Shown here one piece after another: positions 14,001 to 17,000 of a stretch of DNA of 64,000 nucleotides. The stretch lies in the NCBI RefSeq assembly GCF_057098645.1, contig NZ_CM169472.1; one strand, given 5' to 3'. Numbering within the stretch: position 1 is the first letter of the stretch; each line of letters starts with the position of its first letter. The position numbers are program-made.

Positions 14001-17000
14001 CGCCAGTTCGTTACTTAAAATATTGACGCCATCAGCGGTACGCAAAATGCAGATACCCACTGGCGCGGAGGCGACAATCTTGCGATTAAACTGCTCATGT
14101 TCTTCCAGTCGCAGGGCGTCGCTTTCCGCCGGAATGAAAATACGTCGCTCGTACATCCGCGCGAGAGTAAACAATGCAGCTCCGGCAAGCACATTCAGCA
14201 AAATTGCGTTAAGGATCAACATGCGAATGCGTTCCAGCACCTTATCAACCGGCACCGAATACACGATGCTTAGCGATGAGGGTGGCAGATTTTTCTTCAG
14301 CACCAGCTCCCGGAACCCTTCCGTATAGCCAAACCAGGAGCGTTCCTGCATCCAGCGAGGATCGCCCTTAATTTTGCTTTCTGGTCCGGTAAGCGAAATC
14401 AGGGTATGACCATTTTCATCAAGAATGGTAACCCCCATCGGCAACGTACCCGGTAAGAAAAAATTCTCCATCCGGATGGTCTGCTCGACACCCAAAAGCG
14501 CCTGCAACCTGTTCGCCAGATAAACTGGCGTCAACGCGTAAAAATACCCGACGCCAGGGCGCGGACCTTCGCTGATCCAGTAGAGGTTACTGCCGCTATC
14601 ATCTTGTGGTGCATTTCGATATTTATTGATGCGTTCATGCAACGCTTTCAACGCGGTATCGCGTTCCACTGGCATATCACGCAGACCGAAATTGGCCATG
14701 CAGAGGTTATCGCTGCCGATTAAAAATACCCGGTTGAGATCGTAAGCCGCAGAAAAATTATCGCGCCAGTAGCGCATAAACCACGCCAATGACTCCAGAG
14801 AACCTCGCCAGGTGTTACTCATTGCGGAACAATCGGAGTCGGCAAACAGCGGTTCAAACGCAGGCACATCCGCCTGCGTTTCTCGTCCACGCGGGGAAAG
14901 CACACCGTTTTCTGCCGATAAGCGATTTTCGGCGATGTACTTCAGCTCTTTCATCACATCAGAGGTGCGTTGAATAAAGCGCTGAGCCTGATCGGAACTC
15001 AGATTAAATTCCTGACGAATTTCCGATTCTCGCTGATGTAACGCATTAACGATGTAAAAAACGGATGAAAAAGCAATCAACAGCCAGAGCACTAACGCCA
15101 ATGCTCTGAACATGTAGCGCGAGGCTTTCAGGGTTGTACGAAAAGAAGCAAGGTATTTCAAAGGGGCGAAGCTCCGCCTCAGGTGACCGATGGAGTGTGG
15201 TTAAGGTAGCGGTAAAAGCGTGTTACCGCAATGTTCTGTCACCATTGCAATAATGCGTATCGCTTAGAAACCATTGCCTTAACCAGGAAAGCCGGAGTAA
15301 ATGGACAGTTCTCAGTACGAAAAATAAGAAATGACCAATCTGCCGACGCTTGTTAATGGTTATATCCTGGGGTCGGCAGATCGCCCAGCAGTCTTATCTG
15401 AAAAAAGAAAGAGCCAGGTTGTGTGAAGGGATGGATCACCAGTCAAAACTTTTCACCAGCGTCAGCTCGCCAGCATTACGCATCGGTACAATAAATGTTT
15501 CCTGTTTCTCATTGACCGATCCTTCATCGGTGATCAGCGTCAGTTGGGCGGTGGTTAATTCCGTTTCGCTGCGCCCACCATAGTAGTTGATATACACCTG
15601 ATAGCGTCCGTGAACTGGCGCTGGCATGGCGAAAATCTCGGGTCCATACCCCGTCGTGACATCCATATCCAGTGCACCACTGTTTTTCAGCACGGTGTTA
15701 CCGTACCAGGCGTGTTCGCCATCGGGCGTGACAACATGGAGATCGAGATCGGTATTGTCCGTATCCCACGAGAGAACCAGCCGTAAACGTGCACGAATCG
15801 TTCCTGTACCCGGCGTTGAGTAAAACTGCATTTTTTGTCGGCTTTGCCCATCCGGGCTGATGACCTGCACGCTGTTGCTGCCTTCAGTGAAAATATAAGG
15901 GCGTGCAAATGAACCATCGGATTCAATTCTCTGCGGCATACTGGCACCGTTGACCACCAGCCGGCCCTGCTGAACTTTACCCGCCGCAGCATAATTCTTT
16001 ATTTTGCCGCGGATCTGCGCTGAGATATTTTGATCATCTGCCATGTTGACGGACGACGCCGGGTAATTGATCGATTGTGAAAAACTGGCATCTTCGCCCT
16101 CTGCCGGATGCCAGCCTGAGAGCGGTGCGTCAATCTCGACTTCCTGCACACCTTCACTGTGAGCGACAGGCGAAAGCGCCACCAGTAACAACGGAAGAAA
16201 AATCTTTCGCATAGCATTAGTCCATTAATAATTGTCGGGTCAGCGTTTCGATATAGTTCTCATCAAGCCCGGTGGGATAACCATCAAAGGCCAGGTGCAG
16301 ATACTCATGGGTTAAATCCAGCCGATCCTGAAGCGTAAAGAAGTTACGAATAAACAGCCGTTTCTGCTGCCGATCGGTATAGGGGAAACCTGAGACTAAA
16401 CGACAGACCGCAAACACGTCTGGTTCGTTGTACCCCGTCTCGCCTTGTAATATACGCCGCCACTGCGGCATTTTTTTCGCCAGCCAGGCTTTCGCTTTGG
16501 GTAATAACTGACAGGTTGAGCGTGGCGCTCCCCAGCGGCTAAGGCTGTTGTCGGGATAAGCAAACGCGAGTATCTGGTCGTAACGCTCTCCCTGCCCCGC
16601 CTGGGCCATGGCTTGCCGCCAGGAAAGCGTCCCTTCGGTAGCGCGACTGCCGTGATAATGAACCGGATCGCCCGCATAGATGAGATCCTGCGTCCAGGCG
16701 GTCATCGTTCGCGCCCCCGTGGTCGCTGGCGAAGCAGAAACACGCTGCGTGGCGCTGCTGTCGGGGATGGTCAGGCAATCGCCTTCCCGATTGGCGTTTT
16801 GCTGTAAAAAAGTGCGTATCGCCACGGTCATGGCTTTCGCTGCCTCAGGTGGCGTACTTTTCGCCTCGCGATCCAGAACTCTGGCAACGTACTCTTCACG
16901 ATCGAGATGCGACTGCAATTTCAGTTTGCCCTTTTCGGTCAGTAAGGTCGTCTCACCGTGGCTGACAAACGTAATGTGGTTACCATTGGCAAATGTCACA

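What the first reader, a model, noticed from the sequence alone, without database searches (positions are those of the whole stretch)
15162..15435. No atoSCDAEB genes between rcsC and yfaP
In the K-12 order as I recall it, atoS-atoC-atoDAEB (about 7 kb) lies between rcsC and yfaP. Here the rcsC start and the yfaP stop are only 274 bp apart, with no ORF and no transposase scar, only an inverted repeat (15338..15381). Either the ato cassette is a K-12-lineage gain or this lineage lost it cleanly.
Basis: partly seen in the sequence, partly recalled or inferred. Interest (0 to 1): 0.4.

Follow-up and report, generated by a model that had tools for sequence, protein, structure and literature searches.

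The report
Old ato-operon deletion allele with remnant
This strain lacks the acetoacetate/short-chain-fatty-acid (ato) genes that K-12 carries between rcsC and yfaP, because it has an old deletion allele shared by about 28% of complete E. coli genomes and by sister Escherichia species; a decayed stub of atoS remains, so this is an ordinary gene presence/absence polymorphism.

Summary
rcsC (12312-15161, -) and yfaP (15436-16212, -) are 274 bp apart, with no ato genes between them. K-12 has atoS-atoC-atoDAEB in exactly that slot.

The either/or interpretation is only partly right. The gap is not clean. Positions 15238-15410 are a decayed but colinear remnant of the rcsC-atoS intergenic region and of atoS up to about codon 49. 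The start codon is lost, there are 11-bp and 52-bp internal gaps, and residues invariant in AtoS are changed. The ato-less state therefore arose by deletion, not by insertion into K-12.

The deletion is neither recent nor lineage-specific:
- The same junction is in 1,537-1,540 of 5,426 complete E. coli genomes, including O157:H7, O145, O104:H4, IAI1 and LY180.
- It also occurs, with the same internal gaps, in E. whittamii and in another Escherichia species. ato+ strains coexist in both.
- At least two further independent ato deletions exist, in E. albertii and in Escherichia sp. MOD1-EC7003.
- A deeply divergent functional ato haplotype also exists.

The closest genome (O145 RM9872) has no atoDA-like DNA elsewhere. 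The inverted repeat is real and unlikely by chance, but it is not conserved across species; a terminator role is speculative. Variable ato carriage between phylogroups is already published. Interest is low.

The parts
12312..15161 (-). rcsC (sensor kinase, 949 aa, TTG start), left flank of the junction
   Evidence: NCBIfam NF008099 equivalog, 1837 bits, residues 1-948. It is 98.8% identical to K-12 across 11001-15284.
15162..15237 (.). rcsC-proximal upstream region, shared by all haplotypes; presumed rcsC promoter/5' leader (inference)
   Evidence: 76/76 identical to K-12. It is 96-100% identical in E. whittamii, L029 and the ato-B strain L031, although 4-fold sites of the adjacent rcsC differ by 37-40% in E. 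whittamii, L029 and L031. It contains a small hairpin at 15209-15229.
15238..15330 (+). Decayed remnant of the distal rcsC-atoS intergenic region and the atoS start. The ATG is lost. There is an 11-bp gap after 15289 and a 52-bp gap after 15330 relative to K-12.
   Evidence: Colinear MAFFT alignments A1 and j2. Identity to K-12 switches abruptly from 100% to 56% at 15237/15238.
15331..15410 (+). atoS pseudogene stub corresponding to AtoS residues ~23-49
   Evidence: blastn of 15343-15410 against K-12 atoS: 78% over 69 nt, E=1e-9. tblastn: 15/27 residues identical, E=2e-6. The stub replaces residues of the GYIVETEGRSAVLSEKEKK stretch, which is kept almost unchanged in the intact AtoS N-termini recovered from several lineages.
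15338..15381 (.). Inverted repeat inside the atoS stub: 10-bp perfect arms here, 12-bp in the O157:H7/B1 consensus allele. On the - strand it forms a hairpin followed by UUUCUUAUUUUU.
   Evidence: Predicted dG is -23.4 kcal/mol (z -3.0) here and -29.7 (z -5.0) in O157:H7. It is weaker in E. whittamii (-20.4) and absent from the MFE fold in L029. K-12 atoS has only a weak quasi-palindrome there (-11.9).
15411..15434 (.). Deletion joint and tail. It is poorly alignable to anything in K-12 and may be the last ~20 nt of the atoB-yfaP spacer.
   Evidence: Only 12/24 identical to E. whittamii. K-12 homology resumes at 15435. The K-12 bidirectional atoB/yfaP terminator seen is missing here.
15436..16212 (-). 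yfaP (DUF2135/YfaP family, 258 aa), right flank
   Evidence: Annotated yfaP in the 100%-identical RM9872 record and in K-12. It is 97.5% identical to K-12 from 15435 onward.

Best explanation
The 274-bp gap is an old deletion allele of the ato locus, called 'type 1' here.

Origin (inferred). An ancestral rcsC-atoSCDAEB-yfaP arrangement lost about 7.2 kb, from roughly codon 50 of atoS to within about 25 bp of the yfaP stop codon. This was presumably a single illegitimate-recombination event.

What was removed. All of atoC and atoDAEB went, together with the bidirectional atoB/yfaP terminator. What was left is the rcsC promoter-proximal 76 bp, which stays conserved, and a stub of the spacer plus the atoS 5' end. 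The stub has since decayed: start codon lost, 11-bp and 52-bp internal deletions, and many substitutions.

Persistence (inferred). The allele has persisted alongside intact ato haplotypes across several Escherichia species. Homologous recombination in the conserved rcsC and yfaP flanks is presumed to move it between lineages, which would explain why the flanks are K-12-like while the core is 28-44% divergent.

Functional consequence (from established knowledge of the Ato system, not tested here). Strains with this allele lack the AtoSC two-component system, the AtoDA CoA-transferase, the AtoE transporter and the AtoB thiolase. They should therefore not grow on acetoacetate or short-chain fatty acids by this route.

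The inverted repeat is most likely a quasi-palindrome that drifted, or was template-corrected, to perfection in non-coding DNA.
For: Shown by tool results:
- K-12 has atoSCDAEB in the slot.
- Window homology to K-12 is perfect to 15237, resumes at 15435, and 15343-15410 matches atoS codons ~27-49.
- 1,537 of 5,423 genomes have the contiguous junction, and 1,540 carry its 198-bp core at 96.5-100% identity. All other genomes hit only atoS at 78.3%, with nothing between 80% and 95%.
- E. whittamii (L003, L033, L035, L036) and Escherichia sp. GCA_004745145.1 (L029) have the same junction with the same internal gaps. E. whittamii is colinear over 8 kb at 89.6%.
- ato+ strains exist in those same species (L034, L031).
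- The remnant is an outgroup to both functional ato haplotypes: 56-72% identity to either, against 82-86% between them.
- It changes residues of the VETEGRS stretch kept in all the intact AtoS N-termini retrieved.
- Independent deletions with other breakpoints occur in E. albertii (386-bp gap, atoS nt 1-182) and in MOD1-EC7003 (atoS nt 1-302 fused to the atoB 3' end).
- RM9872 and the other O145 chromosomes have a single place for a junction+atoDA query, in both near and distant modes.
Against: - The exact breakpoints cannot be reconstructed, because the remnant is too diverged from any extant ato haplotype.
- Inter-species divergence of the junction (12.7% over 15238-15410) is lower than at 4-fold sites of the flanking genes (27-40%). 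Part of the junction is therefore either constrained or has been exchanged between species more recently than the flanks. Vertical inheritance and introgression cannot be separated here.
- Phylogroup assignment of the 1,540 carriers was not done systematically; only named strains were checked.
- The loss of the Ato phenotype is inferred, not measured.
Confidence: 0.87

Rival explanations
1. The ato cassette is a gain in the K-12 lineage, inserted into an ancestrally empty rcsC-yfaP spacer.
For: ato is absent from about 28% of E. coli genomes. It can travel on a pathogenicity island, the LAA PAI, whose ORF6-11 are atoSC-atoDAEB (PMC5539235). Identity drops abruptly at 15237/15238.
Against: - The 'empty' site contains a colinear atoS 5' remnant and a homologous but diverged rcsC-atoS spacer.
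- The K-12 ato genes have ordinary GC content, 48.5-53.8%, like the flanks.
- No integrase or IS is annotated in the K-12 region.
- ato-A sequence is also present or remnant in E. albertii, MOD1-EC7003 and E69.
- A re-introduction of ato into some lineages by homologous replacement is not excluded, but that would be allele exchange, not insertion into a naive site.
Confidence: 0.03
2. A recent, clean deletion specific to this (O145/O157) lineage.
For: The junction is 100% identical in all O145:H28 genomes and 99.5% identical in O157:H7.
Against: The same junction is found in B1 strains (IAI1, LY180, O104:H4, O111:H8), in E. whittamii and in a third Escherichia species, with shared internal indels and with species-level divergence. 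The remnant is 28-44% diverged from every intact atoS.
Confidence: 0.02
3. The atoS stub and its inverted repeat have been co-opted as an intrinsic terminator or insulator. In this allele yfaP and rcsC are tandem on the minus strand, and the original bidirectional atoB/yfaP terminator was deleted. The hairpin plus U-tract would stop yfa-operon read-through into rcsC.
For: - The hairpin is unlikely by chance: P about 0.003 for 10-bp arms and about 0.0007 for the 12-bp arms of the consensus allele.
- Its stability rises from K-12 atoS (-11.9) to the E. coli consensus (-29.7 kcal/mol, z -5). Only E. coli has UUUCUUAUUUUU directly after the extended stem.
- The K-12 terminator seen is absent here.
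- The block 15331-15410 evolves about half as fast as 15238-15330 among three species: 11.5/80 against 27/93, one-sided p about 0.02.
Against: - The loop is 20-24 nt, against 3-8 nt for typical terminators, and the consensus terminator scan did not call it.
- Changes in E. whittamii and L029 are disruptive, not compensatory, and L029 does not form the hairpin in its MFE fold.
- The U-tract is degraded in the other species and in E. coli ZH142.
- The most conserved bases are in the loop and downstream of the hairpin, not in the stem.
- There is no Rfam match.
- yfaQ and yfaS are pseudogenes in this strain.
Confidence: 0.17
4. The type-1 allele entered E. coli (or the cryptic clades) by inter-species introgression, rather than being inherited vertically as a trans-species polymorphism.
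For: The junction is less diverged between species (7.5-25%) than 4-fold sites of the flanking genes (22-40%). The region is mosaic: E69 has rcsC at 87% but ato at ~96% identity to K-12; L029 rcsC is close to E. whittamii while its yfaP is not; the E. albertii atoS stub is 96-97% identical to K-12 while rcsC is 88%.
Against: Overall divergence across the junction equals that of the flanking 8 kb (about 10-12 differences per 100 nt), with no local dip extending into the coding flanks. The distal part of the remnant is diverged to near-neutral levels between window and L029 (25%).
Confidence: 0.3

Closest known systems
E. coli K-12 atoSC-atoDAEB locus (short-chain fatty acid / acetoacetate catabolism; Jenkins and Nunn 1987, as cited in PMC9602453)
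   Same: Same chromosomal slot between rcsC and yfaP. The window keeps the rcsC-proximal 76 bp and a stub homologous to the atoS 5' end.
   Different: All six genes are missing. Only about 80 nt of atoS-derived, non-coding sequence remains.
Published variable carriage of the ato operon among E. coli phylogroups (PMC9602453: ato prevalence differs by more than 50% between phylogroups A and B1)
   Same: Here ato is present in A and B2 examples (K-12, BL21, Nissle, ST131, O127:H6). It is absent in B1 and in O157/O145-lineage examples (IAI1, LY180, O104:H4, O157:H7, O145).
   Different: That paper reports gene prevalence only. The junction anatomy, the atoS remnant, the sharing with other Escherichia species and the independent deletion alleles come from this analysis.
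LAA pathogenicity island of LEE-negative STEC, which carries atoSC-atoDAEB as ORF6-11 (PMC5539235, PMC6174562)
   Same: It shows that the ato cluster can sit elsewhere in strains whose native site is empty. About 40 complete genomes here have both the type-1 junction and atoDA (arithmetic).
   Different: This does not apply to this window's lineage: O145:H28 chromosomes show no second atoDA place. I did not verify that the ~40 genomes carry LAA.
Independent ato deletions in E. albertii (type 3) and Escherichia sp. MOD1-EC7003 (type 2)
   Same: Same slot, and the left breakpoint is again inside the first ~300 nt of atoS. The right breakpoint lies within the last ~123 nt of atoB (type 2) or in the atoB-yfaP spacer (type 3).
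   Different: Their atoS stubs are K-12-like (96-97% identical), longer (182 and 302 nt) and hardly decayed, so they are younger events. Type 2 keeps the atoB terminator and has acquired REP elements.

Membership tests
Intact ato locus (atoSC + atoDAEB) | atoS and atoC two-component genes next to rcsC | tested here: not met
   Only paralogous hits inside rcsC; the junction holds a 27-residue AtoS-like stub.
Intact ato locus (atoSC + atoDAEB) | atoD, atoA, atoE and atoB structural genes in the window or elsewhere in the genome | tested here: not met
   No tblastn hit in the 64-kb window. The 100%-identical RM9872 chromosome has a single place for a junction+atoDA query, by megablast and by blastn. 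Plasmids of that strain were not individually checked; only 3 plasmid places exist in the whole collection.
Deletion allele with pseudogene remnant (presence/absence polymorphism) | Flanks colinear with genomes that carry the cluster | tested here: met
   Window 11001-15284 and 15435-19000 align to K-12 at 98.8% and 97.5%.
Deletion allele with pseudogene remnant (presence/absence polymorphism) | Residual fragment of a deleted gene at the joint, in the right position and orientation | tested here: met
   15343-15410 matches atoS nt 79-147 at 78%, E=1e-9, and the preceding spacer is colinear.
Deletion allele with pseudogene remnant (presence/absence polymorphism) | The remnant is non-functional: no start codon, frame-breaking indels, changes at conserved residues | tested here: met
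   ATG changed to ACG, with 52-bp and 11-bp gaps. VETEGRS is replaced by LGSADRP, whereas that stretch is kept in all the intact AtoS N-termini retrieved. The fortuitous 31-codon ORF 15331-15426 is stopped after 14 codons in E. whittamii.
Deletion allele with pseudogene remnant (presence/absence polymorphism) | Both states segregate in natural populations | tested here: met
   1,537 contiguous junctions against 3,925 atoDA-positive genomes. Both states occur within E. whittamii and within the L029/L031 clade.
Horizontally inserted genomic island (K-12 gain) | Mobility genes, att/direct repeats or atypical composition at the boundaries | tested here: not met
   No integrase or IS is annotated in K-12 between rcsC and yfaP. 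GC is 48.5-53.8%, like the flanks. The boundary sequence is homologous between haplotypes. Direct repeats at the K-12 boundaries were not searched explicitly.
Rho-independent terminator (for the inverted repeat, minus strand) | G+C-rich stem | tested here: met
   A 12-14 bp stem; -23.4 kcal/mol here and -29.7 in the consensus allele.
Rho-independent terminator (for the inverted repeat, minus strand) | Short loop (about 3-8 nt) | tested here: not met
   The loop is 20-24 nt, and the terminator scan did not call it.
Rho-independent terminator (for the inverted repeat, minus strand) | U-tract immediately 3' of the stem | tested here: inconclusive
   UUUCUUAUUUUU follows only if the extra 3-bp outer stem forms. 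It is degraded in E. whittamii, L029 and E. coli ZH142.
Rho-independent terminator (for the inverted repeat, minus strand) | Structure conserved or covarying in relatives | tested here: not met
   The two arm changes in E. whittamii and the three in L029 all break pairs.
Rho-independent terminator (for the inverted repeat, minus strand) | Termination activity in vivo or in vitro | not testable with these tools
   Needs Term-seq or a reporter assay.
Repeated extragenic element (REP/BIME, MITE) or IS scar | Multiple copies per genome, or similarity to known repeats | tested here: not met
   The junction core is single-copy (median 1, maximum 2 places per genome). There is no Rfam hit.

The most novel reading that the evidence does not exclude
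The rcsC-yfaP slot may hold a long-lived, trans-species balanced polymorphism. At least three deeply diverged haplotypes coexist within E. coli, E. whittamii and a third Escherichia species: ato-A (K-12 type), ato-B (atoS 25% diverged) and the decayed type-1 deletion. Under this reading they are maintained by niche-dependent selection for or against short-chain-fatty-acid catabolism rather than by drift. The retained atoS stub would be partly under constraint, as a replacement terminator or upstream element for rcsC.
Probability: 0.25. Interest if true: 0.5.

Novelty: already known. Interest (0 to 1): 0.22.

Why it matters
The ato system lets E. coli use acetoacetate and short-chain fatty acids, which are abundant in the gut. 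AtoSC also feeds into flagellar and polyhydroxybutyrate regulation, according to literature cited in PMC13340028 and PMC6174562.

Knowing that B1 and O157/O145-type strains carry an old, fixed deletion is useful for metabolic modelling, for pangenome interpretation and as a stable lineage marker. It is not a sequencing gap or a recent loss.

The result does not reveal a new kind of element. The only modestly new points are the allele's age, its sharing across Escherichia species, the recurrent independent deletions, and a second deeply divergent ato haplotype.

Tried and rejected
- Rfam scan of 15050-15550 at E<=1: no hit.
- Sigma-70 promoter scan of 15000-15600: none. Terminator scan: only a hairpin inside rcsC and one at 15209-15229.
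- Small protein: the 31-codon ORF 15331-15426 has no Shine-Dalgarno sequence and is interrupted in E. whittamii, so it was rejected.
- Remnant as a divergent functional AtoS lineage: AtoS N-termini retrieved from the protein database are conserved at the residues changed in the stub, so this was rejected.
- Remnant derived from the divergent ato-B haplotype of L031: it is equally distant from ato-A and ato-B, so this was rejected.
- Foreign composition of the K-12 ato cluster: GC is ordinary.
- YfaP relatives P0084 and P0091 were looked up as possible outgroups. They turned out to be frameshift-ridden ato+ E. coli-like assemblies and added nothing.
- The E. albertii type-strain contig (L005) ends 64 bp after yfaP and was uninformative on its own. 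E. albertii B156 resolved it.
- Literature searches for an explicit description of this junction found only prevalence data and the LAA island.
- I could not list which ~40 genomes have both the junction and ato, so the LAA explanation for them rests on the literature.
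Full report
**1. The observation**

The window carries rcsC at 12312-15161 on the minus strand (NCBIfam equivalog NF008099, 1837 bits, full length). yfaP is at 15436-16212, also on the minus strand. They are separated by 274 bp (15162-15435).

The region is 100% identical to E. coli O145 str. RM9872, where the two genes are annotated as rcsC and yfaP.

tblastn with the six K-12 Ato proteins finds nothing in the 64-kb window except paralogous kinase and receiver hits inside rcsC.

The inverted repeat is exactly as described: arms 15338-15347 and 15372-15381, 10/10 complementary, with a 24-nt spacer. An arm of at least 10 bp appears in only 0.3% of Markov-1 random 274-mers, and in 8 of 233 real 274-bp tiles of the window.

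**2. The gap is not clean**

A sensitive blastn against the K-12 locus shows three things:
- Identity is perfect from rcsC to window position 15237.
- Identity then drops abruptly, with 18 mismatches in the next 47 nt.
- K-12 homology resumes at 15435, one base before the yfaP stop codon.

Inside the gap, 15343-15410 aligns to atoS nt 79-147 at 78% (E=1e-9). At the protein level this is AtoS residues 23-49, with 15 of 27 identical.

Multiple alignments show that all of 15238-15410 is colinear with the K-12 rcsC-atoS spacer plus the first ~49 codons of atoS. Relative to K-12 there is an 11-bp gap after 15289, a 52-bp gap after 15330, and loss of the ATG.

AtoS N-termini recovered from the protein database, from several lineages, keep the stretch GYIVETEGRSAVLSEKEKK almost unchanged. 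The stub reads GYILGSADRPAVLSEKRK. It is therefore a decayed pseudogene fragment, not a divergent functional allele.

The empty state was thus produced by deletion of an ato cluster. It removed everything from about atoS codon 50 to within ~25 bp of the yfaP stop, including the bidirectional atoB/yfaP terminator visible in K-12.

**3. Distribution in E. coli**

- 1,537 of 5,423 matching complete genomes carry the contiguous junction.
- 1,540 carry its 198-bp core at 96.5-100% identity (389 at >=99%, 1,151 at 95-99%). A further 3,718 match only atoS at 78.3%, and none fall between 80% and 95%.
- Named carriers include O157:H7, O145:H28, O104:H4, O111:H8, IAI1 and LY180 (B1 and the O157/O145 lineage).
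- K-12, BL21, Nissle 1917, ATCC 25922, ST131 and O127:H6 are ato+.
- atoDA is present in 3,925 genomes.

Because 3,925 + 1,540 exceeds 5,426, about 40 genomes must have both the empty native site and ato elsewhere. The literature places atoSC-atoDAEB on the LAA pathogenicity island of LEE-negative STEC (PMC5539235, PMC6174562, PMC9729726). I did not verify this for those genomes.

For the window's own lineage, a concatenated junction+atoDA query gives one place only in RM9872 and in every other O145 chromosome listed (all 100% identical at the junction). This holds by megablast and by blastn, so there is no ato elsewhere.

Variable ato prevalence between phylogroups A and B1 is already published (PMC9602453).

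**4. The allele is older than E. coli**

A scan of one genome per species with YfaP, followed by look-ups of exact YfaP variants, gave the following:
- E. whittamii (L003, L033, L035, L036) has a 273-bp junction.
- An unclassified Escherichia sp. (GCA_004745145.1, L029) has a 267-bp junction.
- Both share the same two internal gaps as the window.
- E. whittamii is colinear with the window over 8 kb at 89.6% identity, and divergence across the junction matches the flanks.
- In both species ato+ strains also exist (L034, L031).

L031 carries a second, deeply divergent but intact ato haplotype ('ato-B'). Its nucleotide divergence from K-12 is 25% in atoS (63% at 4-fold sites) and 23% in atoC, falling to 4.7% in atoB.

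The type-1 remnant is an outgroup to both functional haplotypes. It is 56-72% identical to either, whereas they are 82-86% identical to each other.

The 76 nt next to rcsC are 96-100% conserved in every haplotype, which is consistent with the rcsC promoter or leader (inference).

**5. Recurrent loss**

Two further deletions with different breakpoints exist:
- E. albertii B156 has a 386-bp gap. atoS nt 1-182 is K-12-like (96-97% identical) and is fused ~12-37 nt before the yfaP stop. The chimeric 96-aa ORF that this creates was found on 24 contigs.
- Escherichia sp. MOD1-EC7003 has a 752-bp gap. atoS nt 1-302 is fused to the last ~123 nt of atoB, followed by its terminator and REP elements.

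Within E. coli, an atoD-yfaQ fusion (NT1N28) and an IS1 insertion in atoD/atoA (LD39-1) were also seen. ato is evidently dispensable and is lost repeatedly.

**6. Vertical inheritance, introgression and constraint**

Fourfold-degenerate sites of rcsC, yfaP, rcsB and rcsD differ by 27-40% between the window and E. whittamii. The junction differs by less:
- 12.7% over 15238-15410
- 7.5% in the block 15331-15410
- 16-25% in 15238-15330 across the species pairs

Among the three species, the block evolves about half as fast as the adjacent decayed spacer (tree length 11.5/80 against 27/93; one-sided p about 0.02, my calculation).

This could mean partial constraint, or more recent exchange between species. 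The region is clearly mosaic:
- E69 has rcsC at 87% but ato at ~96% identity to K-12.
- The E. albertii atoS stub is 96-97% identical to K-12 while its rcsC is 88%.

I cannot separate these alternatives with the data available.

**7. The inverted repeat**

In the O157:H7/B1 consensus allele the arms are 12 bp and perfect; the O145 window has a G at 15371 that shortens them to 10 bp.

On the minus strand, which is the strand of yfaP and rcsC, the predicted hairpin energies are:

| Sequence | dG (kcal/mol) | z-score |
|---|---|---|
| Homologous K-12 atoS sequence (a weak quasi-palindrome) | -11.9 | +0.3 |
| L029 (hairpin not in the MFE fold) | -17.8 | -0.6 |
| E. whittamii | -20.4 | -1.5 |
| Window (O145) | -23.4 | -3.0 |
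| O157:H7/B1 consensus | -29.7 | -5.0 |

In E. coli the extended stem is followed directly by UUUCUUAUUUUU. A role as a replacement terminator for the yfa operon is therefore conceivable, since the deletion removed the original terminator and made yfaP and rcsC tandem.

Several points argue against it:
- The loop is 20-24 nt.
- All arm changes in the other species break pairs rather than compensate.
- The U-tract is degraded in the other species and in E. coli ZH142.
- The best-conserved bases lie in the loop and downstream of the hairpin.
- The consensus terminator scan and Rfam are both negative.

I rate this reading at about 0.17. The default explanation is a quasi-palindrome that became perfect in unconstrained DNA (inference).

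**8. Verdict**

What is there is an ordinary, already documented accessory-locus polymorphism: an old ato deletion allele with an atoS stub, shared widely in E. coli and in sister species.

It is neither a K-12 gain nor a clean lineage-specific loss. The modestly new details are the remnant, the trans-species sharing, the multiple independent deletions and the ato-B haplotype. Interest is low (0.22).

Noticed in passing
window 16217-17865 and 17866-22485: The genes next to yfaP are broken in this lineage. yfaQ is split into ORFs 16217-17101 and 17029-17865. The alpha-2-macroglobulin gene yfaS is split into 17866-21021 and 21097-22485. PGAP marks them 'frameshifted' and 'internal stop' in the identical RM9872 record; yfaS is also a pseudogene in K-12.
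   Followed up: partly
window 12119-12216 and 12233-12330: The rcsB-rcsC convergent spacer holds two tandem 98-nt units (89% identical). Each contains REP-like palindromes, and the second runs into the rcsC 3' end. A similar REP sequence appears in the MOD1-EC7003 ato-deletion junction.
   Followed up: partly
L031 9851-17096 (Escherichia sp. GCA_004745155.1): A second, intact but deeply divergent ato haplotype. Relative to K-12, nucleotide divergence is 25% in atoS (63% at 4-fold sites), 23% in atoC, 16% in atoD, 12% in atoA, 17% in atoE and only 4.7% in atoB. The gradient suggests a recombination mosaic.
   Followed up: partly
E. coli complete genomes (collection-wide counts): About 40 genomes carry both the empty type-1 junction and atoDA elsewhere (3,925 + 1,540 > 5,426). 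The literature places atoSC-atoDAEB on the LAA pathogenicity island at pheV/selC in LEE-negative STEC. RM9245 (H48) shows two places for the junction core.
   Followed up: partly
L010 (CP089930.1, 'E. coli' E69): Its rcsC is only ~87% identical in DNA to K-12, the window, E. whittamii and MOD1-EC7003. Its ato cluster is ~96% and its yfaP ~95-97% identical to E. coli, so it carries a strongly divergent rcsC allele next to an ordinary ato cluster.
   Followed up: no
H130 NZ_CP075474.1 (NT1N28); H101 NZ_CP047658.1 (LD39-1): Further independent ato lesions within E. coli. One is a deletion joining the atoD 5' end to a DUF2300 (yfaQ) gene. The other is an IS1A insertion splitting atoD/atoA.
   Followed up: no
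L024 3847-4232 (E. albertii B156): The E. albertii atoS stub (182 nt) differs from K-12 at only 5-8 positions, although rcsC next to it differs by 12% overall and 39% at 4-fold sites. The atoS 5' end is therefore either unusually conserved at the DNA level or was recently exchanged between species. The sequence CAGCAGTCTTATCTGAAAAA is identical in ato-A and in the type-1 alleles of E. coli and E. whittamii; ato-B and the L029 type-1 allele each differ from it at one base.
   Followed up: partly
window 15209-15229: A small hairpin, GCGGTAA-AAGCGTG-TTACCGC, lies in the rcsC-proximal conserved 76 nt and is present in all haplotypes. E. whittamii, L029 and L031 carry a T-to-C change that weakens one pair.
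   Followed up: no
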